A model generated the notes under the pieces. The model saw only the letters and a list, made by a program, of their open reading frames with translations. It searched no databases and was not told where the DNA came from. This document shows, piece after piece, positions 2,961 through 49,037 of a stretch of DNA of 64,000 nt. Position 1 is the first letter of the stretch, and each line of letters begins with the position of its first letter. The stretch is taken from NCBI GenBank assembly GCA_000004985.1, contig GG738874.1. One strand, 5' to 3'. Both the position numbers and the translations under genes were made by a program. The stretch comes from Naegleria gruberi (taxonomy: Eukaryota).

Positions 2961-4091
2961 ATGAGATCATCAAGAAAATTACTCAAACTTGCTCCATTAT
3001 TTGCTGTAGCTTCGTATGGAGTTATATCAATGAAGGATACAGATCTTGTCTCTAAATTTTTTAATTATGATCGTAAACAGTTCTATCATCAATTCATGCC
3101 AAATCATCACTTTCTAGTTCAGGCCGAGGAAGAAACTTTGAAACCACAATCTGGTGTGGTGACTGGTAACTTCCCACAAATGGCAATTATCAGCATTAAA
3201 TTGAAAGATTACAAGAATTATGAAAAGGTTTTGAAAGCAGTTTCTCTTGTTCCTTCAATTGTTGAGGAATTGACAGGAGATAAACAAGTCGATGCAGAAG
3301 ATGAATTTGCATTGCCACCTGTCATGATTAATGTTGCACTGAGTACTAGATTTTGGAACTTTTTAAATTCAAAAGATGGAGCTACCTTCAAAAAGCCAGA
3401 AGGTTACACTAAGGATTATGAAACTAAAACAGGAGAGTTTGGTTCAATGCCATATAAGGAAACTGAAATTGTCTTGCATGTAAAGGCAGAGAATACCTCA
3501 ATTTGTTATCAAGCCATTGATCAATTTTTGTCCAATCTCCCAAAGGATGCACTTGAATCAGTGAATGAACATTACGGATTCCAATATCAAGATTCAAGAG
3601 ATTTGAGCAAATTCATTGATGGTATCAATAATCCATCCGGAAATGATGATCGTTCAGTAGCTGCTCTCAATTCACAAAAGGGAAGTTTCCTCATTCATCA
3701 AAAGTGGGTCCATCACCACCATTTAGATTCCAAATTTTCAGTTAAGGATCAGGAGGCATTCGTTGGAAGGGAGAGAGTTTCTGGAGCCGAATTACCAACT
3801 CTACCACCCTCTTCACACGTTGCCAGAATGAGACGACCAAATGGTGATATCATTCCAATTGTGAGACAGAGTTTCCCTTATGGTACAGTGAGTGGAGAAC
3901 ATGGATTATTGTTCATTGCTTACAGTAATAACATTGAAAAGTATGAAACTCTATTGGATGCCATGGTTGGTAAAGTGCACGGCAAACATAATGATGCCAT
4001 CATGAAATTCTCCAATTGCCACTACTCTAATTATTATTACGTTCCATCCATCAATGAATTGAATTCTATCAAGACAAAATTTAATAAATAA
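2961..4091 (+). CDS. Secreted DyP-type (dye-decolorizing) peroxidase-like protein, 376 aa
   Basis: True ATG. Hydrophobic N-terminus MRSSRKLLKLAPLFAVASYGVIS looks like a signal peptide. Motif RDLSKFIDGINNP matches the DyP fingerprint RDLTGFxDGTxNP (GxxDG). C-terminal ...FPYGTVSGEHGLLFIAYSNNIEKYE resembles the DyP C-terminal block. Confidence 0.5.
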   Translation: MRSSRKLLKLAPLFAVASYGVISMKDTDLVSKFFNYDRKQFYHQFMPNHHFLVQAEEETLKPQSGVVTGNFPQMAIISIKLKDYKNYEKVLKAVSLVPSIVEELTGDKQVDAEDEFALPPVMINVALSTRFWNFLNSKDGATFKKPEGYTKDYETKTGEFGSMPYKETEIVLHVKAENTSICYQAIDQFLSNLPKDALESVNEHYGFQYQDSRDLSKFIDGINNPSGNDDRSVAALNSQKGSFLIHQKWVHHHHLDSKFSVKDQEAFVGRERVSGAELPTLPPSSHVARMRRPNGDIIPIVRQSFPYGTVSGEHGLLFIAYSNNIEKYETLLDAMVGKVHGKHNDAIMKFSNCHYSNYYYVPSINELNSIKTKFNK

Positions 4092-4422: not shown

Positions 4423-7400
4423 ATGCTTAAAAATTCAAGAGCTGGTCTTTTGACCCTATTGTTGTTTATCGCATGCTTGATAATTAGCATGGAGGAGCAA
4501 CATGTTGAGGCTCGTGGTGGTAGATATTACAGATCACTTGTACAGGTAAATAATATTATAATATTTTATTGTATTAACATGAATAATAACAATAGAAATG
4601 TACATCTTGGGGAGATCCACACATTCGCAAGTTTGGGCGAGGTGGCTTTGACTATTATTCCATCAGTGAATATACACTGGCAGAGACTTCTGACAAGGCT
4701 TTTATTATGCAGGTCAGAACTGGTCGTCTTGTCAGTGTTAGTGGTAATACTGCATTTGTTATTAAATTTGATGGAGAAACAACTATTGAACTAATTGCTC
4801 AATGCAATTGTTTCAGATTGAATGGAGAACCTATTGATATTGCTCTCAACAAACCATTACAATTGACATCAAAGGGATCTACTCTCACGAGACCAAGTGA
4901 ATTTTTCGGTATTTTCAAATCAGCAAATGGTGCTACCATCATGTACTCATTCTTTTCGAGGGGAGAAACTCGTTATCTTGATTTCAGTATTGATGCACCA
5001 ACTAACCTTAATTTCTCACATGGTTTTTGTGTTAGTTCTGCTAAGGGAGCCATTAATGACAATCTCTTCTACAAGCCTCTTGAAAAGACTAGAACCATCA
5101 AGGCATCAAGTGTAAATAATAAGCTTTTCGATAAGGTAACCGATACCCAACAACAAAAAGCTGAGAATACTTGTAAGAAGGCAGGAATAGACCCTAAGAA
5201 ACATCCAAATGACTATAGTTCTTGTGTAATTGATGCTTTGATTGATCCAAAGAATGCCAAACAGATTGCCAAAGGAATGGTCAAGAATCAAAAGAGGGAA
5301 GAAAAAGCAGCTATTTCTGTCGCTAAGGATACTATTCGAACAATGGATAAGAAGGATCTGGTAAAATTTATTTCCAAAATAGTTGTTTCTGAGGAAAAGA
5401 AGAAGGCTGCTGTTCAAGAAACAAAAACTCCAAGTGCAAAAACTGTTTCCAAGACTTTGAAGGCATTGTCTGTTGATAACTTGATCAATACATTGGATAA
5501 GATTATTGACAATAAGAAGGTTACCGTAAAAACCATTAATTCTACAAAGAAGAAACAAGAAAAGGAACAACATAAGGCTAAAAACAATTCCGAAATGAAA
5601 CAAACTCAAGGTGTTTCTCCAAAAGTTACTGAAAACAAATTTAAACAAGAAGTTCAAAAAATTACTGAAGGAAAGAGTCCAGTCAAGAGATTGATTAAAA
5701 CCAAGTCAATTGATGACAAGCCAATAACAGTTGAAAAAAAGATTAAATCAAAGGTTGCTCAAGAGTCTCTCGTACCAAAGAAGAATGTTGAAAAGAGGAC
5801 ACAACAAACTTCAAAGATCAACTTTGGAAAGAATGACACCACCTTTAGAAAGAGAAAGAAGCAGACTTCTACAGCAACAAAGAAAGAAGCCAAACCAAAG
5901 AAGAAGTCAACCAAGGTTGAATCTGATTTCACTCAATCTTTTGATTCCAAACCAGTTGTCGAAAAGAAGAAGCCAAAAACTTTAAATATTGAATCTCAAT
6001 CTGTTTCAACTAAAAAGCCAGCAACCTCTCAAAAAATTACTGAGGGAAAGAGTCCTGTTAAGATATTGATTAAAACCAAGTCAGTTGATGACAAGTCAAT
6101 AACAGTTGAAAAAAAGATTAAATCAAAGGTTGCTCAAAAGTCTCTCGAACCAAAGAAGAATGTTGAAAAGAGGACACAACAAACTTCAAAGATCAAGTTT
6201 GGAAAGAGAAAGAAGCAGACTTCTCCTTCCACAAAGAAAGAAGCTAAATCAAAGAAAGCTGATGATGAAGAAATGAAACCAAAGAAGAATTCAACCAAGG
6301 TTGAATCCACTCAATCTTTTGATTCCAAACCAGTTGTCGAAAAAAAGATTAGTCCAGTTACGAGATTTATTACAACCAAGGCGGTTTCTACAAAGAGTGA
6401 TCAAGAAACTAAACCAAAGAAGAAAAAAGAGGTTGAAGCGCCAAAGAAGAACTCAAAAACTACTTCAGAAAAGTCCAAGAAACAATCAAAGAAATCAAAG
6501 AAGCAAGTTGAGCAAACATCTGAAAAATCAGGAAAGAAAAATACAAAGAAAGTTTCCAAGAAGACAACTGAAATCAGTGATTCTTCAAAGAAGACATCTG
6601 ACATCAAAGAAACTAAACCAAAGAAGGGTAAGAAGTTGGTCAAGGATAGCTCTGAAAAGAAGGTTAGTAAATCAGTGAAATCATCAATGAAGACAAAATC
6701 AAAGAAGGAAGTTGATTCTCAACAAGATATACCAAAGAAGACCTCTGAAGGCAAGGAAACAAAACCAAAGAAATCTGCCATTTCAAGTAAATCTGTCGAT
6801 TCATCTCCAACCATTAAGCAAGAAACAAAACCAAAGAAAGGGTCTTCTGGAAAGAATGGTAATGTTTCAAATGAAACACCACAGAAATCAAAGAAGGAGG
6901 ACTCCAAGATTTCTTATCAAGAAAAGAAGCAAAAAAAGAAGGTAAAAAAGGTAAAGAAGGGAGCTTCAACATCTAGCAAAAAATCAACCTCTGAAACAAG
7001 TGCTAAATCAAAGAAGGATAGTTCTCGAAATGAAGATGAAATTTCAATTCCTTCCAAGAAATCAAAGGGTGGAAAGAAAAAGGATTTAACTAGTTCAGTT
7101 GATGCTGCAAAAAAGCAAAAGAGCAAGAAGGAACAAGTTCAAAGTAATGATGAATCCACAACCATTCAAAACAAAAAGAAAAAGAGAAAGGACACAAGCA
7201 CTTCTAACTCTTCTGTCGAAACTCCAAAGAAGGACAAGGCTTCCAAGAAGAACGCTAATTCTGAAGATGAAGCACCAAAGCTTAGAATTCCAATTAGGAA
7301 ATCCAGACAAGCTCAAGGTAATGAAGAAACACCAATTCAATCAAAGAAATCAAAGGGTGGTAAGAAAAAGATTCCAAAGGTAGATAAATCCAACAAGTCG

Positions 7401-8426
7401 GAAAAATCACAAGATAAACCAAAGCTCAGAATTCCATCCAGAAAAACCAGTCCATCTCGAGATGATGAAGAAGTACCAAAACTTAGAATTCCAACTAGAG
7501 GTCAATCCAATTCTCCAAAGAATGCTCCAAAGCAAAGTGAAACTTCATCTCAACAAAGAATCGAATCAGGTATGATGACTATCAAGTCTGTTGATTCTGT
7601 TCCAGTTACTGTTGAAAGAACCCAAAAGAATACAATCTCTACACCAAAGGTTAGAATTCCAACCAAGAAAGGGAAAGATTCAAAGAAACAACCAAAGACT
7701 GAATCAATAAGTTCTTCTCAAAATGAAAGTGCAATTGACTTGGCTTCTGAGAGAGTGGAACCAACTCGTCGTCTTCGTGAAACAGCAACAACAGAATCAA
7801 GTGGTAAGAAGAAGAAGGAAACTGTTGAATCTGCTCAACAAATTCCTTCCGAAGAGGTTAGAGAAGTGAGCGAACCAGCCCTTTCTTCTGAAACATCAAA
7901 ACCAACATCCAAAGGTAAACCAAAGGAAAAGAAATCCAATAGAAGATCCAAGAGAACCTCTCACAATGTATCCCGTTATGTCCCAATTGAGAAAAGTCCA
8001 CAATCCAGAGCTGTAGAAAAACCAACATCTGTGAATCAATCTATTAAGACCATCATTAATGTTCCTACGCCTGCAGTTCCAAAACAAAAACAATGTAGAC
8101 CCTCCAAAGTACCATCCCCAGATAAGAAATTGATCTCACAATTGTCCAAGTTGAAGAGAAGAAACGAGAAATTAGCTCGTCATCTCAAGCAAGTTACTCG
8201 CTTCAATCAACAACAAACAGCTTGGAATAGAAAGATGTCCCAATCTCTTCGTTCTGAACATGAAAGTAAGGACAGATTAAAGCACTATCTCCAACGATTA
8301 AGACTTGAATTATCTGACCTAGAGAGAAGTAATCAATTTCAACAAAATCAACAACCAACTGCCGTTACAAATGATAACCAGCAATCTATCGTTCTCAATG
8401 TTGTAGGTTCACCAAATTTACAATAA
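4423..8426 (+). CDS. Giant secreted lysine-rich low-complexity protein with an N-terminal VWD-like GDPH domain (gene A), two exons: join(4423..4545,4596..8426)
   Basis: Exon 1 (ATG 4423, 41 codons, hydrophobic signal peptide) ends in phase 0 before GTAAAT at 4546. Acceptor is caatAG at 4594-4595. Exon 2 reads KCTSWGDPHIRKFGRGGFDYYSISEYTLAE..., the VWD consensus CxxWGDPHYxTFDGxxYxF. Then ~1100 aa of K/S/T/P-rich repeats (SPVKxLIKTKSxDDK, PKLRIPxRK) and a C-terminal coiled coil (LKRRNEKLARHLKQ..., RLRLELSDLERS). Confidence 0.6.
4546..4595 (+). other. Intron, 50 nt, GTAAAT...CAATAG, phase 0
   Basis: Donor and acceptor are positioned so that signal-peptide exon 1 joins in frame to the KCTSWGDPH exon. 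The same position and acceptor context (caatagAAATGT) occur in paralog B. Confidence 0.55.
5650..6350 (+). repeat. Intragenic tandem repeat of ~376 bp, two units (ITEGKSPVKxLIKTKSxDDKxITVEKKIKSKVAQxSLxPKKNVEKRTQQTSKIxFGK)
   Basis: Near-identical DNA blocks at ~5655-5835 and ~6031-6215, plus repeated TQSFDSKPVVEKK segments. Confidence 0.6.
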
Positions 8427-8908
8427 ACAGTAATTTACAACGGCGTATAATATACTTCCTACTGTTCCCATGAAGGGCGAGGATTTTTATTGTATTAATA
8501 AATAGAAAATATATCTAGTCCATCTCTTACATCACAATTAATTGGATTCACCACCACATAATGTGATCAAGAATATGATGAACTCCAGTTACCTTAAAAT
8601 TCCTTAGCTTTGAAGAATTACCTGTGTTGCTTATCCCGCAAAATCCTTATACACGTAACTCCCACAAAGCTAGAGATGGCTCAATATGGCAATTGAATGA
8701 TATTACTAGACCAAAAGAGGCTATTGAGGATTCACTTCAGCAGTTTGGTGTGCTATTTAGCAGCGAAAAACAAGTGAGCGAGATTCTAGATGTACAGTAA
8801 ATTGTTATCCGAACTCACAGTATAAATTCACTTTGTACATCTAAATTACCGTTCACTTTGTGATTCATCCTTATCATCTATAAAAAAACAACATAAAGCC
8901 ATACTAAG

Positions 8909-11900
8909 ATGTCATCGAGAGATTTATCCTATTCATTCTTGATTGTTTCCTTGTTGTTACTTGGCATGTTGCTGGGAGTACATGCTGCTGGTCCTGCAGT
9001 TATTAATGCTAAATCAGTCATCAATGCTGTTGTTAAGGTAAGTGTTGATAGTTGAAATTCTGTCGGTTGATATCGTGTTTTTATCTCATTCAACCTTACT
9101 CCTCATTAAATTCCATCCTTAATGTTTCCATTCAATGCCAATAGAAATGTGTTTCTTCAGGCGACCCTCACTTGAGAACATTTAGTGGTACAAGATTTGA
9201 CTATTATTCTGTTGGTGAATATGTCTTGGCTGAAGCTGCCGACAAATCCATCATGATTCATGCTCGTACTGGTAAATTGAATGCTGTTTCTGGTAACATT
9301 GCTGTTGCTTTAGCACTGGACCAGGAAACAGTTTTGGAATATCATGCTAACGGTGCTTACTTTGTTATTGATGGTAAGAACGCTACCATTAAATCTGGTG
9401 AAACTGTTTCATTGGGAACTAAGGGAGCATCTGTAACATATAACAAAGGAAACGTTGCTGTTAAGAGTAGTTCAGGAGCTTCTGTTGACTTGTATGGTTG
9501 GTCCGTCCCAAACCAACTCTCATATTTTGACATTTCCTTTGAAGCTCCAACCACACTTGATATTAATTATGGTTATTGTGTCAGTCAATCAATGGGTACT
9601 CAAAAGGATGGAAGTTACTTTAACAAGCCAATTAAGAGAGTTGCATTGATCAAGACTGCTAGTATTAATGCTGAGCTCAAGGAAGCAACTCCAGAAGAAA
9701 AGAAACAAGCTCGTGCAGCATGTTCTAAGATTTCTGAAAAGGACCATCCAAATGATTTCAAATCGTGTTACACTGATGCCTTGCTCAACCCAGAACTTGC
9801 TTCAAAGTTTGCTAAGGGTATTGTTGGTATGCAAAACATGCAAAAGGTATCAATGAAGGAAGTTGCTAAGGATGCCCTTTCACAAATGGATAAGAAGGAT
9901 ATTGTCAAGCTTGTAGCTAAGGCTACTGTTTCAGAAGCTAAGAAGAATGAAGTTCCAACCGCTTCCACTCAAAAGATTACTTCTGCTTTGAACACCTTGT
10001 CAACTGACAAGTTACTTTCAACATTGGATAAGGTTATTGATAATAAGGCTACTGTAAAGATTGATCCAAAGGCCACCAAACCAGTCGAAAAGAAGATTAC
10101 TCCAGCAAAGGTTGCCGTCAAGTCTGTTGATGCTAAGGTTCCAGTTGTCATGTCTTCCACCACTCAATCTTTAAAGCCAATTAAATTGGTGGAAACTCAA
10201 AAGGTTGTTGAAAAGAAGGTTGAACAAGTTGAAAAGAAGACTGAAACCCCAAAGGTTGTCGAAAAGAAGGTTAAAACTAAGGCTGAAAAAGTTGAAACAA
10301 AACCAGTAGAGAAGAAGACCAAGCCAGTCGAAACTCCAAAGGTTGTTGAAAAGAAAACAGTTGAATCCAAGCTAGTTTCTTCACCAAAGAATTCTACTCA
10401 AACTGTTTCCAAACCAGTTTCTACTGTTAAACCAACTAGTCAGCCAAAGAAACCAGCTACCAAGCCAAGTACTAAGAATGAACAACCAAAGAAGGTACAA
10501 CCAAAGATCAGTAAGCCTGCAGCAAAGACTTCAACCTCTCCAAAAGTTGCTGCCAAGTCTGTTAACTCCAAGCCAGTTTCCGCTCAACCAAAGAAGCCAA
10601 CTTCTTCTAAGCCAATTACCAAGCCAACAATTCCAGTTATTGAAAAGAAGAATACAGCTGTTCCAAAGACAAATTCTACTCAAACTGTAAAGACTGAAAC
10701 CAAGCCAGTCTCAGAAATTAAGATTTCTTCTGTTCAATTCAAGTCAGTCAAATCACCAAAGGTTGTTTCCAAGAGTACTGAAACTATCAAACCAATTAAA
10801 CAGAAGTCTGAAAAAACGAAACTAGTAACAAAGATCGTTTCTGCTCAACCAAAGCCAACAACCAAAATATCCAAACCAGCCTCTAAAACAGAAACTCCCA
10901 AGCCTGCTGCTAAGAGTTCATCCTCTACAAAGGTTGCTGTGAAGTCTGTTAAATCAGTTGCTCCAAAGAATGCTCCTGTCAAGTCAGTTTCTCCAAAGTC
11001 TTCAACCAAGAAGCCAGTTACTGAAAAGAAGGCAACCACTTCTAAGCCTACTATCAAGACTTCAACTTCTCCAAAGGTTTCTGTAAAGTCTGTAAAATCA
11101 GTTCCAGTTAAAAAGGCTCAACCAAAGAAGTCAACCTCTTCAAAGCCGGCTACTTCTAAACCTATTACCAAACCAGTTTCTACTAAATCAACTAGTCAAC
11201 AAAAGAAGCCAACTGCTACCAAGACAAGCACTAAGAATGAACAACCAAAGAAGTCTTCAACAACTCCAAAGGTTGAGACAAAATATTTTGAAAAGAAGTC
11301 TGAAACTTCACCTATTAAGGTTGCCTCTGTTTCATCACCAAATGTTGTCAAGTCAGTTGCTGAAAAGAAGCCAGTTACTAAACCAGCTACTCCAAAGAAG
11401 ACAACTACTTCTAAGCCAGCTACAAAGACCTCTCCAAAGGTTTCTGTAAAGTCTGTAAAATCAGTTCCAGTTAAGAAGGCTCAACCAAAGAAGTCAACCT
11501 CTTCAAAGCCAGCTACTTCTAAACGTGTTACCAAACCAATTTCTACTAAACCAAGTAGTCAAGCAAAGAAGCCAACTGCTACCAAGAGTTCATCCTCTCC
11601 AAAGGTTGTTAAATCAGTTCCAGTTAAGAAGGCCCAACCAAAGATCAGTAAGCCTGCAACAACGACTTCAACCTCTCCAAAAGTTGCTGCCAAGCCAGTT
11701 TCCGCTCAACCAAAGAAGTCAACAACCTCCAAGTCTTCTGCTTCTAAATCTGCTACCAAGACTTCATCTCCAAAGGTTGCTGTAAAGTCTATCAAGTCAG
11801 TTCCAGTTAAGAAGGTTGAAGATTCAATTAAGGTTGCTTCTGTTTCATCACCAAAGATTGCTGTAAAATCTGTAAAGCCAGCTTCTCCAAAGAAACCAAC

Positions 11901-13434
11901 CAAGAAGTCAGTTGCTTCAAAGCTTGTTAAGTCAAAGACTGCTGAAAAGCTAGTTTCTCCAAAGAAGTCAACTACTAAAACAGATACTCCAAAGAAGGCC
12001 CAACCAAAGAAGTCAACCTCTTCAAAGCCGGCTACTTCTAAACCTGTTTCCAAACCAGTTTCACCAAAATCAACTAGTCAACAAAAGAAGCCAGCTACCA
12101 AGCCAAGCACTAAGAATGAACAACCAAAGAAGTCTTCAACAACTCCAAAGGTTGAGACAAAATATTTTGAAAAGAAGTCTGAAACTTCACCTATTAAGGT
12201 TGCCTCTGTTTCATCACCAAATATTGTCAAGTCAGTTGCTGAAAAGAAGCCAGTTACTAAACCAGCTACTCCAAAGAAGTCAACATATTCTAAGCCTGCT
12301 ACAAAGACTTCATCCTCTCCAAAGGTTACTGTAAAGTCTGTCAAAACCGTTGCTCCAAAGAAAGCTACTCCAAAGAAGTCAGAAAAGAAATTAGAGGAAA
12401 AGAAATCAAAGACTGTCTCAAACCCAAAGAAACAAGTTTCCAAGACTGAAAAGCCAAAAGCTAAACCAACTTCTCAACAAAAAAAGCAAGATACCAAACC
12501 AAAGAAAAGTTCAACAACTCCAAAGGTAGAAACAAAACCATTTGAAAAGAAGTCTGAAACTTCATCAATTAAGGTTGCTTCTGTCTCCTCATCAAAGCTT
12601 GCTGTAAAGTCTGTTTCTACTAAACCAAAGATTGCTGTTTCTCCAAAGAAACCAACCAAGAAGCGAGTTGTTGAAAAGAAGTCAACTACTAAGAAGGCTC
12701 AACCAAAGATCACTTCTCCTAAATCTGCTACCAAGACTTCCTCTCCAAAGGTTGCTGTTAAACCTCAATCAGTTACTCCTAAGTTTGCTGTAAAGCCTGT
12801 TGCTTCCAAATCAAAGATTGCTGTCAAGCCAGTTTCTCCAAAGAAACCAACCAAGAAGCCAGTTATTACAAAGCCTACTGCTCCAAAGATTTCAGGTAAA
12901 TCAAAAGTAACTCCAATGCAATCAGGTGTCAAGATTCCAATTCACAATGCTCCAATGCAAGTTGTAAAGAAGCCAGCTGGAACAGTCAAGAAGTCAAACA
13001 AGAAGTCACCAAAGAAGCCACACAAGAAGTCACAAAAGAAGAGAGATGCCAAGAAGAGTTCACAAGCCAAGCCTGCCAGACCATCTTCTCAAAATGTTAA
13101 CACTCAACAAGTTAATGCTTCTCCAGTAGTCAACGTTCCAGTCTCTGTTCAATTGCCAGCTCAACCAATTTTGGAACAACAAGAAAGATTCAACAAAAGA
13201 CAATCTTCTTGGAATCAATATGTTCAAAACACTTTCAGAAATGAAGCATCTATCAAGGGACAAATTAAGAATTATTTGCTTAAATTGAAGCAAGATGTTG
13301 AACAATTAAGAAGAGATAACACTGCTCAAAAGGAAGCTCTTCAAAGATTGAGAGCCCAACAAAGTGTTAGACCAAGTGGCGCCAACTTTAGTGAAAAGGT
13401 TCATGATTTGATTGGAGCCATCAAGAGTATTTAA
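8909..13434 (+). CDS. Giant secreted lysine/proline/serine-rich protein with an N-terminal VWD-like GDPH domain (gene B, tandem paralog of A): join(8909..9037,9145..13434)
   Basis: Exon 1 is ATG 8909 ... AVVK, with GTAAGT at 9038. Acceptor is AG at 9143-9144. Exon 2 reads KCVSSGDPHLRTFSGTRFDYYSVGEYVLAE.... Long K/P/S/T repeats follow with SPKK/TPKK/KPxTKP motifs resembling histone H1 tails. C-terminal coiled coil (LKLKQDVEQLRRDNTAQKEALQRLRAQQ). Confidence 0.6.
9038..9144 (+). other. Intron, 107 nt, GTAAGT...CAATAG, phase 0
   Basis: Canonical donor directly after the signal-peptide exon. Acceptor context is identical to gene A. Confidence 0.55.
11101..12300 (+). repeat. Intragenic ~300-bp near-identical repeat units (11101-11410 and 11990-12300), with a shorter third copy near 10441
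   Basis: Blocks encoding QPKKSTSSKPATSKP...TSQQKKPxATK...TKNEQPKKSSTTPKVETKYFEKKSETSPIKVASVSSPN recur with very few nucleotide differences. Confidence 0.6.
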
Positions 13435-16471: not shown

Positions 16472-19400
16472 ATGATTAAGGCTAGAAGGAGTAACTTTTC
16501 ACTTTTAATTGGGGTTGTCTTGGTGTGCATGATTGCATTCTTGAGCATGTATGCACATGCCGGTAAGAGCTCATCAGCACCACCACGAACTGCTGCTCCG
16601 TCCGTGGCTAGAGCTCAACTACCTCCACAGCCAGTTTCAAGAGCACCTCCGATGGCACAACCAATTTCAAGACAGGCAACTCCACAACCTGTATCAAAAC
16701 CAACTCCAGTTTCTAAACCAGCTGCTGCTCAACCTATTGTTGCCAACGTTAATGAAAAGAAATCTTTCCCAAAGAAAGGAGATCCATCTTTTGTTGGACC
16801 TGTTCAACCAAAGAAACAATCATCAACACCAGCTACTTCTAAACCAGAAGTTCCAAAGGCAGGCGCCAAGAACAAGCCTGTCGTGGATATCAAGAAATCT
16901 AATGATGTTATAGTAGCAAATGTTAATGATAAGAAATCTGGTAGAAAGAAGGAAGAAACAAAACCTGAAAAGACTGTTGAACACAAGAAAGACAGTACAT
17001 CTAGCAAGATTGAAAAGAAATCTGAAGAATCAAAGCCAGACACCAAGGTGGAACACAAATTTGATGAAAAGAAACCTGATATCAAGTCAAAGACTGAAAA
17101 AAAGAAAGAAGAAAAGACATCTTCTCATAAGGATGATGTAAAGAATTCTGAAAAGAAGGCCCAGAAATCTGAACTTAAGGAAGATAAGAAATCTGAAAAT
17201 TATAATAAGATGACCAATGAGAAAAACAAGATGAATGATAAGAAATCTGATGTAAAGAAATCTTCAAAGAATTTAGAAGAAAATAAGAAGGAATCCGTTG
17301 AGCATAACAAGGCTAATAAGGATTCTGAAACTTCCAAACCAGATTCCAAAATGCAAGTCAAATCATCAGAAAAATCAAATTTAAAAAAGGATGAAAAAAA
17401 ATCCGAACATAAGGAGGATAAGAAATCTGATAAGAAATTTGATAAGAAAAAGAAATCTGATAACAAGAAGGATGAAAAGAAATCTGATGACAAGAAATCT
17501 ACCGAAATCAAATCTGATAAGACTGATCATAAGAAATCCAATAAGGATGATAAGAAATCAGAAAAGAAGGGTTCAACCGATAAGAAGAAGACTGATGGTG
17601 AAAAGTCAGATAAGAAGACTAAGGATGTAAAGTCTGATAATCCTGATTCTAAGAATACTAGTAAATCAAAGAAGTCTGTTGATAAGAAGAAGACTAACAC
17701 AAAGAAGGATAAGAAGACCAATAAGGAAGAAAAGAAATCTGTAGAAAAGAATGAAAAGAAAATAGGAAAGAAGTCTACAAATACAGCCACAAAGAAGGAT
17801 ACTACCAAGTCCACTAAGAAAACTGATAAGAAATCCTCTGAAAATAAGAAGACAAGTGGATCCAAAAAGGCCGAGCCTAAAAAGAAAACCAATTCAACCA
17901 AACCTGGAAAGAAATCTAGCACAAAGAAGCTCTCTAGTACGAAATCAAAATCTATTGGAAAGAAATCTGATATTAAGGAGGGTAACAAGAATGCTAAACC
18001 AAAGACCACTGATACCGGTAAGAAATCAGCTTCTGATAAGAAATCCAAGTCAGACAAGAAATCTGAAAAGAGCCCAACAAGTGTAAAAAAGGATAAGAAG
18101 AGTACCAAATCAAAAACTGAAAAAAAGTCAACAACTAGAATGAAATCCAAGGATGTTAAAAAGCCAGGAATGACACCAAAATCATTTGATAACATGTTTG
18201 CTCAACAAGCTAAAAAGTTGTCTCAACCAACAAGTCCAGTCAAACCAAACACAAAGTCTGACAAGAAGTCCAACAAGCCAAAGAAATCAAACACTGGTAA
18301 GAGGACCTATTCCAAGAAGAATGATAAGTCAAAAACTAGTTCCAAGAAACCTGGAAAGAAATCTAGCACAAAGAACCTAGCTGGTAAGAAATCAAAATCT
18401 ATTGAAAACAAATCTGATGTTAAATCCACAAAATCAGGAAAGAAGTCTTCAAAAAATACTGGCAAAAAATCTGGAAAGAAATCTACCAACAAGTCTGGAA
18501 AGAAATCAACTAAAAAGAGTAAGAACACTACTAAGTCTGGAAAGATATCCAATACTGGAAAGTCTGGAAAGAAATCAAAGAATGGTAATACGAAATCAGA
18601 TAAGAAGACCAAGAAATCAGAAACTGGTAAGAAATCAAAAAATTCCAAAGGAAAGAAGGATAGTAAGAAATCAAAGAAATCTACCAAAAAATCAGTAACG
18701 TCAACTAAAACAACTAGTAAGAAATCTAACAAGTCTGGAAAGAAGGCTTCTAAGAATACTGGCAAGAAATCAGGAAAGAAATCCAATAAGCCTGGAAAGT
18801 CAAAGAAGATACCCAAGAAATTAGGTAAGAAGGGTTCTAAAAAGGCTAACCAACCAAGCAAATCCAGTAACAAGTCTGGAAAGACCTTAAAGAATGGTAA
18901 ACCAAAGAAATCCAATACTGGAAAGACATTAAAGAATGACACATCAAAGAAATCAACTAAAAAGGGCAAGAACGGTACTAAGTCTGGAAAGAAATCAAAA
19001 TCTGGTAAGAAGACTAAGAAATCAGAAACTGGAAAGAATTCTGGAAAGAAATCAAATACTGGAGAGAAAAACAACAATTCTTCTAAGAATAATAAGAAAA
19101 AGAACTTGAATGGAAAGAAGGACAAGTCCAAAAACAAATCAACTAATTTAAAGAATAATAAGAACACCAATAAGAAGAGTGCAAACAAATCAAGGAATAA
19201 CAAGAACATGACTGAACAAAAGGAAGAATCTGAATCATCTTTTGGCACACCAGATTCTGAGGAGAGAGAAACTCCATATTCTGAAGATGGACCAATAATA
19301 TTATTAAGAGATGATAACATCTTATCTAATTCTTACAAACAAAGAGGAATTGAAATTGAAGATGAACCAGTTAAAGTAGTTGAAAAGAATAGTATGAAGG

Positions 19401-20608
19401 TCAAGCAAGTCGATAGTGAAATTGAACTATCTAGTGATCAAGATGAAGAAAGGCCACTCCAAATTTCTAAGAGGCAAGTTGAAAAGTCAATTCAAAGAAA
19501 CGATTTTGAAGACAATGAGGAACCAAAGGTCTCTAAATCTAAACAAGACGCTGAAAAATCCGAAGTTGAAAAGACCATTCAAAGAAAAGAGAAACACCAA
19601 GTTGAAGATGAAGAAGAAGCCCCTCAAAAGAAGTCTGTAAAAGGAAAGCATGATAAGAAATCTGGAAAGAAATTGAAGAATGAAAGATCAAAGAAGTCTG
19701 GAAAGTCTGTTGCTAAGAAAGGCAACAGGTCTGGAAAGAAATCAAATAATTCCACAGGAAAGAATGGCAATAAGAAATCAAAGAAATCTGGAAAGAACAC
19801 CAAAACAACAAGTAAGAAGTACGGAAAGAAGCTCACTAAAAAGAATACCAAGAAATTAGGTAGGAAGGGTTCTAAGAAATCTGTAATTAAACCAAAGAAA
19901 TCCAATCTTTCTTATGGTAAGGATTCTGGAAAGAAATCTTCCAAACAATCCAGAAAAGTGGAATATGAAGATGTTGAATATCCAATTCAAAGAAACCAAA
20001 AAAAAAGAAAACAACAAGTTGATGAAAAACCTCCTCAAAAGAAGTCTAGAAATATTTCAAAGAGACAGCAGCAAGATGAAGAAAGATTTATTCTACAATA
20101 TGAAAAGAAATCTGGACACAGAAAGGTTAATAAGAAATCATCCAAGCAAGAATTCGAAGAAAACCGAGCTCCAAAGAGGCAATATGTTGAATTTGATGAA
20201 GAAGTTCCTCAAGAGAATTCCAAATCTGGAATGGATATCTTGACCTATAGAACAAATCCAATCAATATCAATAACCATCAACCTCAAAAAAGAATGATCA
20301 ATAGAATTACCCCTCAAACAGTATCTCAATTAAGACCAATCGAATCAAATGCCCCAGCTATTACTAATCCACAAATTTATCATCCATTTGTTAGACCAAA
20401 TAACTTTGTTACCACTGCTCCACCAGCTATTGCTCGACCAAATAACTTTACTCCTCAAACACAATCTCATGATGAAACTATGAATCTGCAAAATATTGGT
20501 ATCAATCTTGTCACCAACAATCCAACTCCTACAGCTCCAAATCATAATGTTAACAGAGCCAGAGTTGTACAAGCTTTGAGAAAATTGATTGCCTCTATGA
20601 AGAAATAA
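16472..20608 (+). CDS. Giant lysine-rich low-complexity protein C (~1378 aa) with a signal/anchor N-terminus, Pro-rich segment, KKSxKK repeats and a conserved C-terminal motif
   Basis: First true ATG at 16472 (MIKARRSNFSLLIGVVLVCMIAFLSMYAHA); the ORF track start at 16403 is upstream of it. Long KKSDKKS/GKKSxK repeats follow. The C-terminal ...NLVTNNPTPTAP...RARVVQALRKLIASMKK* is conserved with gene D. Confidence 0.5.
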   Translation: MIKARRSNFSLLIGVVLVCMIAFLSMYAHAGKSSSAPPRTAAPSVARAQLPPQPVSRAPPMAQPISRQATPQPVSKPTPVSKPAAAQPIVANVNEKKSFPKKGDPSFVGPVQPKKQSSTPATSKPEVPKAGAKNKPVVDIKKSNDVIVANVNDKKSGRKKEETKPEKTVEHKKDSTSSKIEKKSEESKPDTKVEHKFDEKKPDIKSKTEKKKEEKTSSHKDDVKNSEKKAQKSELKEDKKSENYNKMTNEKNKMNDKKSDVKKSSKNLEENKKESVEHNKANKDSETSKPDSKMQVKSSEKSNLKKDEKKSEHKEDKKSDKKFDKKKKSDNKKDEKKSDDKKSTEIKSDKTDHKKSNKDDKKSEKKGSTDKKKTDGEKSDKKTKDVKSDNPDSKNTSKSKKSVDKKKTNTKKDKKTNKEEKKSVEKNEKKIGKKSTNTATKKDTTKSTKKTDKKSSENKKTSGSKKAEPKKKTNSTKPGKKSSTKKLSSTKSKSIGKKSDIKEGNKNAKPKTTDTGKKSASDKKSKSDKKSEKSPTSVKKDKKSTKSKTEKKSTTRMKSKDVKKPGMTPKSFDNMFAQQAKKLSQPTSPVKPNTKSDKKSNKPKKSNTGKRTYSKKNDKSKTSSKKPGKKSSTKNLAGKKSKSIENKSDVKSTKSGKKSSKNTGKKSGKKSTNKSGKKSTKKSKNTTKSGKISNTGKSGKKSKNGNTKSDKKTKKSETGKKSKNSKGKKDSKKSKKSTKKSVTSTKTTSKKSNKSGKKASKNTGKKSGKKSNKPGKSKKIPKKLGKKGSKKANQPSKSSNKSGKTLKNGKPKKSNTGKTLKNDTSKKSTKKGKNGTKSGKKSKSGKKTKKSETGKNSGKKSNTGEKNNNSSKNNKKKNLNGKKDKSKNKSTNLKNNKNTNKKSANKSRNNKNMTEQKEESESSFGTPDSEERETPYSEDGPIILLRDDNILSNSYKQRGIEIEDEPVKVVEKNSMKVKQVDSEIELSSDQDEERPLQISKRQVEKSIQRNDFEDNEEPKVSKSKQDAEKSEVEKTIQRKEKHQVEDEEEAPQKKSVKGKHDKKSGKKLKNERSKKSGKSVAKKGNRSGKKSNNSTGKNGNKKSKKSGKNTKTTSKKYGKKLTKKNTKKLGRKGSKKSVIKPKKSNLSYGKDSGKKSSKQSRKVEYEDVEYPIQRNQKKRKQQVDEKPPQKKSRNISKRQQQDEERFILQYEKKSGHRKVNKKSSKQEFEENRAPKRQYVEFDEEVPQENSKSGMDILTYRTNPININNHQPQKRMINRITPQTVSQLRPIESNAPAITNPQIYHPFVRPNNFVTTAPPAIARPNNFTPQTQSHDETMNLQNIGINLVTNNPTPTAPNHNVNRARVVQALRKLIASMKK

Positions 20609-20714: not shown

Positions 20715-22805
20715 ACGTTCATTACACATTCACTTGAATGGCTATCGTATCTTAAACCAGTAGCACAACCAACTGTTGAAAAGAAATCTGTTGCCAAGAC
20801 TGACAAGAGTCAAGTCAAATCAGCANCTGAAAAGAAGAAGGCCGATGTAACACCAAAAGAAATTGCTAAACCAACAAAGAAGCCAGTTGATACCAAGCCA
20901 GCTAAACCTGTTGTCGATACCAAGAAATCTGATGCCAAGAAGTCAACTGATAAATCTGGTAAGCCAAAGACTGGTGCCAAGAAAACTACTGGTAAGAACA
21001 CTGATGCCAAGAAGTCAACTAATAAGAAGACTGATGCAAAGACAGGAAAGTCTGCTACTGCCAAGAAGACTCCAGCTATGGCAACCAAGTCTGTTCAAAA
21101 TAAGACTATTGCCAAGAAATCTGATGCCAAGAAGTCAACTGATAAAACTGGAAAGCCAAAGACTGCTACCAAGAAGACTGCCAAGAAAACCATTGATAAG
21201 GCAAAGTCTGGTGTAAAGACTAATGCCAAGAAGACTGGTTTGAAGGGAAAGTCAACAAAGAAAGATGTCACCAAGTCAACTAAAAAGTCTGACAAGAAGC
21301 CATCTGCCAAGAAGGATAAGTCTGCCAAGAAGTCATCTGATAAGACTGTAAAATCAAAGAAATCATCTGAAAAGAAAACCGGTAAAAAATCCAAGAAAAC
21401 TGGTGTAAAGAAGACTGATAAGAAGGGAAAGAAGGATAAAAAGCCAACTAAAAAGACTCATAAGAAAACCAAGTTAAGTGCATTGACTAGAGCTAGAGGC
21501 CACGTCTTTAAGAAAAAGAAGAAGAATTTGACAACTGAAAACCCATCCCAATCATCCCAATCTCCAATTCTTGAACATATTCCAATGGAATCAGATGGTT
21601 TGTCAAGAAGACAAAGATATGAACGTTCACTTAAAGAAAAATCAAAGAAATCCGAAAACAATGAAGAGAATGTCCAAAAGGAATCTGAAGTTATTGCAAC
21701 TCCTAGTTCTGAAGACATTTCCTCACCAATTAATTCTGAAAGAGTAGCTACTTCTGAAGATTCACCGGTCCAAAACAATTCCGAAGAAAGATCTTCCTCA
21801 AACGATAACATCTCATCCAATTCTGTTAATCAAAGAGGACTTGAAATTGAAGATGATGTTAAAGTTGAAAAGAAACAACGTGTTGGAGTCAAGCAAGTTG
21901 ATGAAGAAATTGAATCTAAGGAAGAAATCAAGTCTGACGAAAAGAAATCTGCTAAGGTTTATGGAGAGTCTGATAAGAAACCTAGAAAGGATGAATCTGA
22001 AGAAGAATTGGAAGAGCCAACCTCTGTCCAAAAGAAATCCAAGAAGTCAACTAAGAAATCAAGAAATCTTACGAAGAAGACTGGTAAGAAGGGTGAGAAA
22101 TCAACCAAAAAGACTGCTCCAAAGAAGAATAGCAATAAGACAGGTAAGCAGACAGGTAAGAAGGGTAAGAAATCTGGAAACAAATCAAGAAAGGTTGTTA
22201 AGAAATCTGGAAACAAGTCAAACAAGAATGAAAAGAAACCAACCAAGAAGACTGATAAGAAGGGTAAGAAATCTGGAAACAAGTCTAACAAGGGTGCTAA
22301 GAGATCCACTAAGAAATCAGGAAAGGGTGAAAAGAAATCCATGAATACTCAAAATAGAAGAATCAATAGAATTGCTCCTCAATCAGTAACTCAATTCAAA
22401 CCAATGGAAATTGTTGATACTCCAGCTATCAGTAAGGCACAAATTTCCCAACCAGTTATCACTCAACAAGATGTCGAACCAACTACTGGTACTCAAAGAC
22501 AACTTCCAACTGGTGCAATGAATGTTCAAAACATTGACATTAATCTCATCACAAACAATCCAACTCCTACTGCTCCAGATAGTCCATCTCCATCCGAGAT
22601 TGCATTGGTCAGAAGATTTTTGGCTAATAGAAGAAGATTGGAAAAGAAGCAAGCTCCACAACAACCAAAGGAAGAACCAATGAATGTTTCTAATGTTGTC
22701 ACTGTTGGTATGCCTCAACCTGCTCAAAAGCCAACCAAACAAAATATTGATAGAGCTAAAGTTGCTGCTGCTTTGAGAAATTTGATTGCTTCTGTTAATA
22801 AATGA
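20715..22805 (+). CDS. Lysine-rich low-complexity protein D (tandem paralog of C); 5' end unresolved
   Basis: Frame is open from 20715 with K-rich coding from ~20763. The first in-frame ATG is at 21078 and a single N sits at 20826. C-terminal ...NLITNNPTPTAP...RAKVAAALRNLIASVNK* matches gene C. No signal-peptide exon was found, so an upstream exon or an assembly defect is likely. Confidence 0.4.
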   Translation, partial: TFITHSLEWLSYLKPVAQPTVEKKSVAKTDKSQVKSAXEKKKADVTPKEIAKPTKKPVDTKPAKPVVDTKKSDAKKSTDKSGKPKTGAKKTTGKNTDAKKSTNKKTDAKTGKSATAKKTPAMATKSVQNKTIAKKSDAKKSTDKTGKPKTATKKTAKKTIDKAKSGVKTNAKKTGLKGKSTKKDVTKSTKKSDKKPSAKKDKSAKKSSDKTVKSKKSSEKKTGKKSKKTGVKKTDKKGKKDKKPTKKTHKKTKLSALTRARGHVFKKKKKNLTTENPSQSSQSPILEHIPMESDGLSRRQRYERSLKEKSKKSENNEENVQKESEVIATPSSEDISSPINSERVATSEDSPVQNNSEERSSSNDNISSNSVNQRGLEIEDDVKVEKKQRVGVKQVDEEIESKEEIKSDEKKSAKVYGESDKKPRKDESEEELEEPTSVQKKSKKSTKKSRNLTKKTGKKGEKSTKKTAPKKNSNKTGKQTGKKGKKSGNKSRKVVKKSGNKSNKNEKKPTKKTDKKGKKSGNKSNKGAKRSTKKSGKGEKKSMNTQNRRINRIAPQSVTQFKPMEIVDTPAISKAQISQPVITQQDVEPTTGTQRQLPTGAMNVQNIDINLITNNPTPTAPDSPSPSEIALVRRFLANRRRLEKKQAPQQPKEEPMNVSNVVTVGMPQPAQKPTKQNIDRAKVAAALRNLIASVNK

Positions 22806-34748: not shown

Positions 34749-34787
34749 CTTTCTTTTGGTTTTTTTTTGAAAATTGTAGTTTTTGTG

Positions 34788-34799
34788 CCGCCCGGGCGG
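34788..34799. promoter_or_regulatory. 12-bp perfect GC palindrome CCGCCCGGGCGG ~45 bp upstream of the cyclase copy-1 ATG
   Basis: An isolated GC-rich palindrome containing a SmaI site in an otherwise AT-rich 5' flank. It is absent upstream of copy 2. Confidence 0.2.
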
Positions 34800-36125
34800 G
34801 TAAGTTGTCAGAAGTTTCAGATTCGAATAACTTCAACTATACTTCTGTACTGAACTTTAGATGTTGAACATAATTTCCTTCTTGAAATTTGTTTAGTTCG
34901 ACCGATAGTGAAATTACTTTGTTGAGATAAGTTCGCAATGTCTATCAGAATTACATCATGAGATTTCAAATAAAAAAATTATTCGAAATATGGTTATATC
35001 ATTCACTAGAATAAATGTTTGTAAACTATATAGTTTGATTTCTAGTGATTGGTCATTAATTTTGCAACCAGGTTCATGCTCCTTATGATAAGTTTACTTT
35101 CGAATATATACAATTACAAATGAAAATGGAAATAAAAATTCTCAATTAATTTTGATGTTTGTAATTAATGACAGGTTTTGAGATAATGGTGGGCTAGGAA
35201 CATAACGAAAATGATTTTCTTGCCGTTTGCCCTCTTGATGTGTTTTGAAGCCAAGCGTCATCTTTTAAATTTACTTTAATGTCCAACATTTTAGAGGATA
35301 GAACGTTTATTCCCACTAGTAATATCACCATCAAGAGTTCTTCATCAGATATCTCGAAATCCTTTCTTTTGTTCTTCAAGTTCATGTTTGATTTTTTCTT
35401 GCCTTTTTGAGAGTTGTTTTTGGTTTTTTCAATTTTTTCATATTTATTTTCAAAGGCCACATCAAAGCATCGAAGGAGATTGGCTTCACACAAGATTTTA
35501 AGCAATTTGGAAATACAGGTAAAGTGCTTTATTTTGAAACATCACAAAAAATCAAACAACAATCTTTTAATAATTAGCTGAAGATTGAGCCTTTTCAAAT
35601 AATATCAAGTCTTTATTCAATAATTGCCAAATCCTTACAATTTTTATCTCACGATCTGGCAAACATTGAAATTGTTAATTAATCATGATCGATTGTTTAA
35701 TAGATTGATCAAAAAACAGATTGATTAGATGGATTTTAATCGATCAACATGGATGAGATGGAAAAATGATTGGTGTTGAGTGAAAAAATTGTTTCTGGAA
35801 AACTGCAATATTCATCGAGTGGCAAATTTCACTTCATGGTGAATTTTCCAACATGGCAAAGTTCATGTTTAAGAGATTTTCTCCTAAGGTCCATATAAGG
35901 GTTGTGGCATTATCTTCCTCACGAATAAAATCATCAAAGTTGAGCATATATTTTTTCAACTGTAAAAGGGGAATAATGTGTTCAATGTAACCTCATTGAG
36001 CACTGAAACAGAAAGTTTATTCTCTTAATGTACAAATTCAGCGTAAAACGATTTTCTTTGCTTGTATTAATATTATAATAAAATTATAGGAATATATAAA
36101 TATTATTTTAATCTTTCAACATGGT

Positions 36126-41386: not shown

Positions 41387-41436
41387 NNNNNNNNNNNNNN
41401 NNNNNNNNNNNNNNNNNNNNNNNNNNNNNNNNNNNN
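41387..41436. other. Assembly gap (50 N)
   Basis: Run of n characters. Confidence 0.95.
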
Positions 41437-48688: not shown

Positions 48689-49037
48689 TTTTGTGCCTTT
48701 TTTTCTTCTTGTCGATTCACTCTACTTGTGCATAAGAGAAGAATGTTTGATGGATGGGAAGTAATTTTGGAAGGGCAAGGGCAGAAAGTATGTTGTTTGA
48801 TGCTAAGAAGTGATCTCCGCATTTTGATTTTGTTGGAGTAAATTTAATTGGCTGATTATTTTTTGTTAGTATTCTTTTTGTCTTCCATTTACGAGAAGAT
48901 CTTCACGAAAGATTATTTATCTGATATTAAAGATAGCATTGTGATGAACAGATGAAAGCAACACATTTTTATTTTTTTTAAATTATGAATTGTTTATTCT
49001 TGTAACGGTAACTTTTACTGCCCGCCACGTTTAAAAA

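What the first reader, a model, noticed from the sequence alone, without database searches (positions are those of the whole stretch)
4423..13434. Tandem giant secreted proteins combining a VWD-like GDPH autoproteolysis motif with histone-H1-like lysine-rich tails; conserved intron position
Both genes have a short signal-peptide exon. A phase-0 intron ends in the same caatagAAATGT context. The next exon starts KC..(W/S)GDPH(I/L)R.F.G..FDYYS, the hallmark of VWD/GDPH domains, which autocleave between D and P in mucins and RGM. More than 1000 aa of K/P/S/T low-complexity repeats with SPKK/TPKK-like motifs follow, then a C-terminal coiled coil. A polycationic secreted protein with a GDPH domain is an unusual combination. 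Roles in a cyst wall or extracellular matrix, or in binding polyanions, are speculative.
Basis: partly seen in the sequence, partly recalled or inferred. Interest (0 to 1): 0.6.

Follow-up and report, generated by a model that had tools for sequence, protein, structure and literature searches.

The report
Naegleria secreted VWD proteins, lysine-rich tails
Two neighbouring genes of the amoeba Naegleria gruberi encode large, probably secreted proteins that join a mucin/RGM-type VWD domain carrying the self-cleaving GDPH motif to a roughly 900-1000-residue strongly positively charged tail; this combination recurs across related amoebae, has not been described, and its function is untested.

Summary
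The window is Naegleria gruberi. Two same-strand genes, G1 (4423-8426) and G2 (8909-13434), each have a short exon with a signal-peptide-like start. Each has a phase-0 intron ending caatag, then an exon that begins KC..GDPH.

After the VWD beta-sandwich comes a small two-cysteine helical module that resembles the end of RGM_C. Then come 864 aa (G1) or 1038 aa (G2) of K/S/T/P low-complexity sequence with net charge +138 and +217. A short heptad segment shared by both proteins closes each one.

The RefSeq model of G1 skips the GDPH-encoding 39 codons and the signal peptide. All full-domain relatives (Naegleria, Willaertia, environmental protists) are also strongly basic, so VWD-GDPH plus polycation is a family trait.

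The best reading is a secreted, self-cleaving, matrix- or wall-forming "cationic mucin analogue". Secretion, cleavage and role are inferred, not shown. The histone H1 likeness is compositional only. I class this as a new variant of a known kind, of moderate interest.

The parts
4423..4545 (+). G1 exon 1: Met1 plus a signal-peptide-like segment (MLKNSRAGLLTLLLFIACLIISMEEQHVEA|RGG...)
   Evidence: The VE(A/S/G)|(R/K) context is shared with homologues P0003, P0008, P0009 and P0010.
4546..4595 (+). G1 intron: 50 nt, phase 0, gtaaat...caatag
   Evidence: It is needed to join the frames. The family profile starts at the first codon after it.
4596..5042 (+). G1 VWD-type beta-sandwich (residues 42-190), with Cys43 and Cys186 at the positions of the beta1-tethering disulfide
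   Evidence: 152 bits to a profile built without G1 and G2.
4611..4622 (+). G1 GDPH motif (residues 47-50); predicted Asp48|Pro49 autocleavage site
   Evidence: P and H are invariant and D is at least 90% conserved in the family.
5085..5519 (+). G1 helical region (residues 205-349), including the two-cysteine module C234...C251 (CKKAG...HPNDYSSCVIDAL)
5520..8111 (+). G1 polycationic low-complexity tail: 864 aa, K 24%, S 15%, T 9%, net charge +138; contains one 179-nt direct repeat pair
8112..8426 (+). G1 C-terminal module with heptad pattern (residues 1220-1286 = 8130-8330) and stop codon
8909..9037 (+). G2 exon 1: Met1 plus a signal-peptide-like segment (MSSRDLSYSFLIVSLLLLGMLLGVHA|AG...)
9038..9144 (+). 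G2 intron: 107 nt, phase 0, gtaagt...caatag, at the same position as in G1
9145..9591 (+). G2 VWD-type beta-sandwich (residues 44-192), with Cys45 and Cys188
   Evidence: PF00094 above threshold; AF2 pLDDT 88; fold matches.
9160..9171 (+). G2 GDPH motif (residues 49-52); predicted Asp50|Pro51 autocleavage site, in the beta1-beta2 turn of the model
9655..10047 (+). G2 helical region (residues 214-344), including the two-cysteine module C236...C251
10048..13161 (+). G2 polycationic tail: 1038 aa, K 25%, S 16%, V/P/T 12% each, net charge +217; built from many diverged and some near-identical direct repeats (for example 233 nt at 94% identity)
13162..13434 (+). G2 C-terminal module with heptad pattern (residues 1400-1448 = 13213-13359), homologous to the G1 C-terminus, and stop codon

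Best explanation
G1 (NAEGRDRAFT_49892, mis-modelled in RefSeq) and its downstream paralogue G2 are Naegleria gruberi genes for large secreted extracellular-matrix-type proteins.

Architecture, in order:
- a signal peptide;
- an RGM_C/mucin-type VWD beta-sandwich with GDPH in the beta1-beta2 turn, and a cysteine pair placed to tether beta1;
- a small two-cysteine helical module;
- a 0.9-1.0 kaa extended, disordered, polycationic S/T/P/K spacer;
- a short C-terminal heptad (oligomerisation) segment.

Proposed mechanism:
1. The protein enters the ER and the VWD folds.
2. The Asp-Pro bond of GDPH cleaves autocatalytically, as in FCGBP, MUC2 and RGM.
3. The resulting 18-24-residue N-terminal peptide stays disulfide-linked.
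4. After secretion, the two terminal modules mediate self-association, and the long cationic spacer binds polyanionic partners such as wall or coat polysaccharides or other negatively charged surfaces.
5. The result is a gel, coat or cyst-wall matrix: a 'cationic mucin analogue'.

Shown here: domain identity, motif and cysteine conservation, the gene models, and family-wide basic character.
Inferred: secretion, cleavage, oligomerisation, and the matrix or wall role.
For: Identity of the domain:
- Pfam VWD hit for G2 above threshold; 18 of 20 relatives hit VWD.
- Family profile against PDB: FCGBP E=2.8e-40, MUC5B E=1.7e-8.

Cleavage competence:
- P and H of GDPH are invariant and D is at least 90% conserved, across domains that are only about 25% identical.
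- D-to-A/N and H-to-N mutations abolish cleavage in FCGBP, and GDPH sits in the beta1-beta2 turn (PMC10880436). The model places GDPH between strands 2-5 and 9-11.
- The Cys five residues before the Asp, and a Cys 143 residues later, match the spacing of FCGBP C472-C611.

Secretion:
- Signal-peptide-like N-termini are seen in G1, G2 and most complete homologues.
- The environmental homologue P0010 is one uninterrupted ORF from signal peptide to VWD.

Matrix-like design:
- The N- and C-terminal modules are conserved between G1 and G2 while the tails have diverged.
- S+T+P makes up about 40% of the G2 tail.
- The heptad pattern is strongest at both C-termini.
- Every full-domain homologue has pI 9.6-11.8.
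Against: - There is no expression, proteomic or localisation evidence. No paper mentions these loci.
- No signal-peptide predictor or coiled-coil predictor was run.
- There is only one VWD unit, with no TIL, E or CK modules, so the known mucin polymerisation chemistry (D3 and CK disulfides) cannot apply.
- The mature G2 protein has only four cysteines, all plausibly used in intramolecular bonds.
- The Gln that assists cleavage in FCGBP D10 is Tyr here.
- A polycation is the opposite of normal mucin charge. Glycosylation is unknown.
Confidence: 0.5

Rival explanations
1. Secreted polycationic adhesin or binder rather than a structural matrix. The tail sticks the amoeba to negatively charged substrata (clay, glass), or coats and agglutinates bacterial prey in an antimicrobial-polycation-like way. 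The VWD end serves only as a folded anchor or handle.
For: Net charge is +138 and +217 with almost no aromatic or hydrophobic content in the tails. The whole family is basic. Two further secreted-looking K/S-rich genes without VWD lie just downstream, which suggests that the polycation itself is the functional part.
Against: No direct data. Conservation of both terminal modules between G1 and G2 fits assembly better than a simple coating agent.
Confidence: 0.2
2. Self-crosslinking matrix. The Asp anhydride created by GD|PH cleavage is attacked by lysine epsilon-amines of the tails (isopeptide), or by sugar hydroxyls of a wall polysaccharide (ester, as in inter-alpha-inhibitor heavy chains). 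This would covalently insolubilise the protein.
For: The anhydride chemistry, an ester link to chondroitin sulfate in ITIH3 and a proposed Lys isopeptide are described in the literature (PMC8267560). Here the GDPH motif is under strong constraint, and it always co-occurs with an extreme excess of lysine in the family.
Against: In FCGBP the anhydride is buried and simply hydrolysed, and no crosslinks were found. Cleavage may serve only to stabilise the fold (PMC10880436). Nothing here tests the chemistry.
Confidence: 0.1
3. Intracellular nucleic-acid or chromatin-binding proteins (true H1-like function). On this reading the signal-peptide exon is a modelling error.
For: K/S/T/P composition, and 9 [ST]PKK motifs in G2. 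The RefSeq model of G1 starts at Met23 without the hydrophobic segment.
Against: VWD is an extracellular disulfide-bonded fold. The RefSeq model deletes 39 conserved codons that the family profile requires. Signal peptides recur in homologues, including an intronless one. There is no linker-histone or other nuclear domain.
Confidence: 0.03
4. Non-functional low-complexity ORFs or pseudogenes, with a GDPH motif present by chance.
For: The tails are repetitive and evolve fast.
Against: Open frames of 1276 and 1429 codons in 35% GC DNA cannot arise by chance. The full 240-residue domain matches an independent profile at 152-157 bits. GDPH occurs nowhere else in the window.
Confidence: 0.02

Closest known systems
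Repulsive guidance molecule C-terminal domain (Pfam RGM_C, PF06534; RGMB structures 4ui2, 7ndg)
   Different: There is no RGM_N domain and no GPI-anchor-type C-terminus. Instead there is a 0.9-1 kaa polycationic tail and a coiled-coil-like end. G1 and G2 score below the RGM_C gathering threshold (14.7 bits against 27 for G1). The lineage is a protist, and no neogenin/BMP system is implied.
D assemblies of gel-forming mucins, VWF and FCGBP (VWD-C8-TIL-E)
   Different: There is one VWD only. The post-VWD helices keep 2 of the 8 C8 cysteines and have no significant C8 sequence similarity (E 0.14-0.34). There are no TIL, E, CysD or CK domains. The spacer is strongly cationic, not neutral or anionic. 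Lang et al. 2016 note VWD in Naegleria but not together with C8 or TIL (PMC4948705).
Histone H1 C-terminal tails
   Same: K/S/T/P/A-rich, disordered and highly basic. S/TPKK-type motifs are present in G2 (9 copies).
   Different: No linker-histone globular domain and no Pfam hit. The protein is predicted to be secreted. Only one such motif occurs in G1. This is a likeness of composition, not homology.
Lysine-rich proline-rich or extensin-type plant cell-wall proteins (own knowledge; analogy only)
   Same: Secreted, basic, repetitive K/P/V/T/S structural proteins that interact with acidic wall polymers. The tails of G2 and its paralogue P0002 (KPV.., TPKV.. repeats) look similar.
   Different: No sequence homology was tested or claimed. 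There are no Tyr crosslink motifs (aromatics about 1% of the tails). The N-terminal VWD is absent from the plant proteins.

Membership tests
VWD domain (PF00094) | Match to the curated profile at or above the gathering score | tested here: met
   G2 scores 23.8-24.4 bits against a cut-off of 22.9. G1 alone does not reach it, but it is 39% identical to G2 over the domain and scores 152 bits against the family profile. 18 of 20 relatives hit VWD.
VWD domain (PF00094) | VWD beta-sandwich fold | tested here: met
Autocleaving GDPH-type VWD (FCGBP, MUC2-C, MUC5AC, RGM) | Intact G-D-P-H in the beta1-beta2 turn, with Asp and His present | tested here: met
   GDPH is at G1 residues 47-50 and G2 residues 49-52, between model strands 2-5 and 9-11. 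P and H are invariant and D at least 90% conserved in the family. The requirement for D and H comes from PMC10880436.
Autocleaving GDPH-type VWD (FCGBP, MUC2-C, MUC5AC, RGM) | Actual Asp-Pro cleavage of the protein | not testable with these tools
   This needs reducing against non-reducing SDS-PAGE, or mass spectrometry of native or recombinant protein.
Autocleaving GDPH-type VWD (FCGBP, MUC2-C, MUC5AC, RGM) | Cysteine pair that keeps beta1 attached after cleavage | tested here: inconclusive
   The cysteines are at the right sequence positions: C is five residues before the Asp, its partner is 143 residues later, and both are at least 90% conserved. FCGBP C472-C611 has the same spacing.
Mucin/VWF D assembly (VWD-C8-TIL-E) | C8 module with eight cysteines after the VWD | tested here: not met
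   Only two cysteines are present. There is no significant C8 sequence match (C8-3_MUC4 E=0.14; FCGBP E=0.34). The structural alignment does extend about 60 residues past the VWD, so the module occupies the place of C8 but is not a C8.
Mucin/VWF D assembly (VWD-C8-TIL-E) | TIL and E modules | tested here: not met
   There are no such Pfam hits and no further cysteines.
Gel-forming mucin | Several N-terminal D assemblies, an O-glycosylated PTS domain, and C-terminal CK dimerisation | tested here: not met
   There is a single VWD and no CK. The composition is PTS-like (S+T+P about 40% in G2, about 30% in G1), but with 25% Lys. Glycosylation cannot be tested here.
Repulsive guidance molecule | RGM_N plus RGM_C above threshold, and a GPI anchor | tested here: not met
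   The RGM_C match in G1 is only 14.7 bits against a cut-off of 27. There is no RGM_N. The C-terminus is hydrophilic and heptad-patterned.
Linker histone H1 | Winged-helix globular domain (Linker_histone) flanked by basic tails | tested here: not met
   The tails have no Pfam hit at E<=0.01. The N-terminal domain is a VWD.

The most novel reading that the evidence does not exclude
Heterolobosean amoebae have an undescribed class of extracellular polymer: cationic mucin analogues. In these, a GDPH-autocleaving VWD head, a very long lysine-rich spacer and a coiled-coil end build the cyst wall, pore plug or surface coat. The Asp anhydride released at GD|PH may be captured by the protein's own lysines or by wall sugars, giving a covalently self-curing matrix. 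If so, VWD-based extracellular polymer assembly would predate animals and exist in Discoba in a chemically inverted (polycationic) form.
Probability: 0.2. Interest if true: 0.7.

Novelty: new variant of a known kind. Interest (0 to 1): 0.45.

Why it matters
VWD domains are central to animal mucus, haemostasis and RGM signalling. [quoted passage not shown]

This work adds four points:
- Corrected gene models put an intact GDPH-VWD and a signal peptide on proteins currently annotated only as 'predicted protein'.
- The protist domain is RGM_C-like: a VWD plus a reduced two-cysteine helical module.
- It is systematically fused to, or embedded in, extreme polycations across Naegleria, Willaertia and uncultured relatives.
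- The overall layout parallels gel-forming mucins but with opposite charge.

If the proteins prove to be cyst-wall or coat components, they would be candidate targets or markers for the resistant stage of Naegleria, including homologues in the pathogen N. fowleri. They would also give a simple single-VWD system for studying what GDPH cleavage is for, which is still unknown in animals (PMC10880436, PMC8267560).

Tried and rejected
- The search for homologous proteins found nothing with the G2 N-terminal domain and only one weak hit with the 20-sequence alignment. Exact look-ups show the Naegleria relatives are in the collection, so the word index misses this family. The exhaustive representative search was what worked.
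- The look-up of encoding contigs had no record for the DyP ORF or for P0001.
- The first AF2 run, with only the two paralogues, was unusable (pLDDT 51). It was redone with 20 sequences.
- The afdb50 fold library was unavailable, so the structural neighbours among predicted protist proteins are unknown.
- True H1 homology of the tails is rejected: no Pfam hit.
- A canonical C8 module is rejected on sequence.
- The exact spliced G2 protein is not in the protein collection, so I could not establish its public annotation.
- Literature searches for the locus tags, for 'VWFD' with Naegleria, and for Naegleria cyst-wall proteomes gave nothing specific.
- From memory only: an early chemical analysis of N. 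gruberi cyst walls (Werth and Kahn 1967) may bear on lysine content. I could not retrieve it and it is not used as evidence.
- The bacterial promoter/terminator scan is irrelevant for a eukaryote and was ignored.
Full report
**Source and setting.** The window is AT-rich (33-39% GC), with long ORFs and few short introns. An exact protein look-up shows that the ORF at 2961-4088 is XP_002676075.1 of Naegleria gruberi, on a 401,612-bp scaffold. The best database match to the first gene of the finding is the next accession, XP_002676076.1 / NAEGRDRAFT_49892. Neighbouring genes fit Naegleria: PAS-adenylate cyclases, G-alpha subunits, an LRR protein, an NHL/EGF protein and a DyP-type peroxidase.

**Checking the observation.**
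- G1: exon 1 4423-4545, intron 4546-4595, exon 2 4596-8426; 1317 aa.
- G2: exon 1 8909-9037, intron 9038-9144, exon 2 9145-13434; 1472 aa.

Both introns are GT...AG and phase 0, end in caatag, and are followed by AAATGT. Both are required to join the reading frames. Exon 2 begins KCTSWGDPHIRKFGRGGFDYYS in G1 and KCVSSGDPHLRTFSGTRFDYYS in G2. GDPH occurs only at these two places in all six frames of the 64 kb. Open frames of 1276 and 1429 codons in DNA of this composition cannot be chance.

The N-terminal 335 residues are 39% identical between G1 and G2, and a C-terminal 54-residue stretch is 35% identical. The long middles have diverged. The tails are as follows:
- G1: 864 aa; K 24%, S 15%, T 9%; net charge +138.
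- G2: 1038 aa; K 25%, S 16%, V, P and T 12% each; net charge +217.

[ST]PKK occurs 9 times in G2 but once in G1. The G2 tail is a patchwork of direct repeats, some 94-99% identical at the DNA level. A crude heptad scan puts the strongest a/d pattern of each protein at its C-terminus.

**What the N-terminal domain is.** Pfam gives G2 a VWD hit just above the gathering score. G1 alone gets only a short RGM_C match on the motif. The word-indexed homologue search found nothing. An exhaustive HMMER search with the two-paralogue profile found 439 proteins. Matches over the whole roughly 240-290 positions come from N. gruberi, N. fowleri, N. lovaniensis, Willaertia magna and unnamed environmental sequences. 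UniProt already labels the N. fowleri and N. lovaniensis proteins 'VWFD domain-containing protein'.

From these I built a 20-sequence alignment (A2). In it:
- 18 of 20 members hit Pfam VWD and 5 hit RGM_C.
- The profile hits FCGBP at E=2.8e-40 and MUC5B at E=1.7e-8 in the PDB.
- A profile built without G1 and G2 matches G1 residues 42-283 (152 bits) and G2 residues 44-285 (157 bits). In both cases the match starts at the first codon of exon 2.

AlphaFold2 with this alignment gives a confident model (pLDDT 88, pTM 0.74): a beta-sandwich at residues 1-145 followed by helices.
- Foldseek's top PDB hits are MUC2, MUC5AC, VWF and FCGBP D assemblies, and RGMB also appears.

- Sequence similarity to C8 is not significant (E 0.14-0.34).
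- The module does hit positions 178-226 of the RGM_C profile in 6 of 20 members (best E 3.9e-4).
- Some environmental relatives carry four cysteines here, including a C..D.C motif.

The globular unit is best described as RGM_C-like: a GDPH-VWD plus a reduced two-cysteine helical module. It is not a canonical D assembly.

**Cleavage competence.** In FCGBP the GDPH lies in the beta1-beta2 turn, D-to-A/N and H-to-N mutations abolish cleavage, and beta1 stays attached through one disulfide (PMC10880436; PMC8267560). In this family:
- P and H are invariant and D is at least 90% conserved, although the domains are only about 25% identical overall.
- The model places GDPH between the first two strands.
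- A cysteine lies five residues before the Asp, with a conserved partner 143 residues later. This is the same spacing as FCGBP C472-C611.

Cleavage would release an 18-residue (G1) or 24-residue (G2) N-terminal peptide that stays tethered. This is a well-founded inference, but it is not shown.

**Gene models.** The RefSeq protein for G1 (1256 aa) starts at Met23 and uses an acceptor at 4712. It therefore lacks both the hydrophobic leader and 39 codons (4596-4712) that encode beta1, GDPH and beta2. The paralogue on another scaffold (NAEGRDRAFT_48959; 53% identical to G2) is annotated from the same internal point. This may be why VWD is not annotated on these proteins.

Signal-peptide-like leaders with a shared VE(A/S/G)|(R/K) context occur in P0003, P0008, P0009 and P0010. 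P0010 comes from an environmental heterolobosean (41% identical to an N. fowleri protein). It is a single uninterrupted ORF from leader into VWD, so the architecture does not depend on any splice model.

**The polycation is a family trait.** Every homologue with a full domain has pI 9.6-11.8 and a large positive net charge outside the domain. The basic regions vary in kind:
- K/R/A-rich helical tails in N. fowleri, Willaertia and NAEGRDRAFT_59485;
- S/K-rich regions before the VWD in N. fowleri FDP41_005632 and N. lovaniensis C9374_012355;
- K/P/V/T repeats in the G2 paralogue.

The tails have no Pfam match. 'Histone-H1-like' is therefore a statement about composition only.

**Interpretation.** The conserved N-terminal VWD/helical head and the conserved C-terminal heptad module flank a fast-evolving, extended, S/T/P-rich spacer. 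This parallels the logic of gel-forming mucins, but with a single VWD, no TIL or CK, and opposite charge. I favour a secreted, self-associating extracellular matrix, coat or cyst-wall protein whose spacer binds polyanions.

Alternatives are a substrate or bacterial-binding polycation, and a self-crosslinking matrix that uses the Asp anhydride. That chemistry is documented for ITIH3 and has been proposed for lysine, but it was not seen in FCGBP. An intracellular H1-like role and an artefact are both very unlikely.

No literature deals with these loci. The only relevant published statement found is that VWD occurs in a few protists such as Naegleria, without C8 or TIL (PMC4948705).

**Verdict.** These are members of a heterolobosean family of VWD-GDPH proteins. 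They represent a new variant of a known domain class, with an unusual and conserved polycationic partner. Function is untested. Interest is moderate.

Noticed in passing
window 4423-4712: The RefSeq/JGI model of G1 (XP_002676076.1, NAEGRDRAFT_49892, 1256 aa) starts at Met23 and splices 4545|4713. It therefore omits the signal-peptide-like leader and the 39 codons that encode the conserved KC..GDPH start of the VWD domain. The paralogue NAEGRDRAFT_48959, on another scaffold, is truncated at the same point.
   Followed up: yes
window 16472-20605 and 20715-22802 (+ strand): Two more large K/S-rich ORFs (K 23-26%) lie downstream on the same strand. The first has a signal-peptide-like start (MIKARRSNFSLLIGVVLVCMIAFLSMYAHA), then a proline-rich stretch, then SGKKS-type repeats. 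The two share an acidic middle and a C-terminal ...INL(V/I)TNNPTPTAP...RA(R/K)V..ALR.LIAS module. Neither has a VWD or any Pfam hit. The second has no obvious start codon and contains an N. Together with G1 and G2 they form a cluster of four polycationic, probably secreted proteins.
   Followed up: partly
window 2961-4091 (+ strand): A DyP-type peroxidase gene (Dyp_perox_C, E=1.7e-30) lies immediately upstream of G1. Its N-terminus is moderately hydrophobic (MRSSRKLLKLAPLFAVASYGV). Any functional link to the matrix-like proteins, such as oxidative cross-linking, is pure speculation, and the tails are very poor in tyrosine.
   Followed up: no
window 29271-34832, 36129-40172, 40159-42086, 43145-48721 (- strand): Two paralogous TPR-PAS-adenylate/guanylate cyclase genes sit in tandem. 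An assembly gap (a run of N/X) lies near 40.2-41.4 kb. The N-terminal peptide SESTRRKKGTKMKRFFDSAGRVKSFSHHEY appears twice, at 41295-42086 and at the start of the 1859-aa NHL/EGF teneurin-like ORF at 43145-48721. This suggests a local duplication or an assembly artefact.
   Followed up: no
locus L001 1930-3741: An environmental metagenome contig (ENA ERZ27315067, 6.7 kb, about 40% GC) carries an intronless homologue (P0010) next to two CitMHS-type transporter gene fragments. P0010 has a signal peptide, GDPH-VWD, helical module and K/R/A-rich tail, and is 41% identical to N. fowleri FDP41_012263. This indicates uncultured heteroloboseans with the same family.
   Followed up: partly
proteins P0020, P0027, P0038, P0073, P0046 (environmental relatives): Some unnamed environmental relatives have tandem GDPH-VWD units and four cysteines in the post-VWD module, including a C..D.C motif. 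They look intermediate between a canonical C8 and the two-cysteine Naegleria form. P0046 (1572 aa) adds many basic cysteine-rich repeats. Their source organisms are unknown.
   Followed up: no
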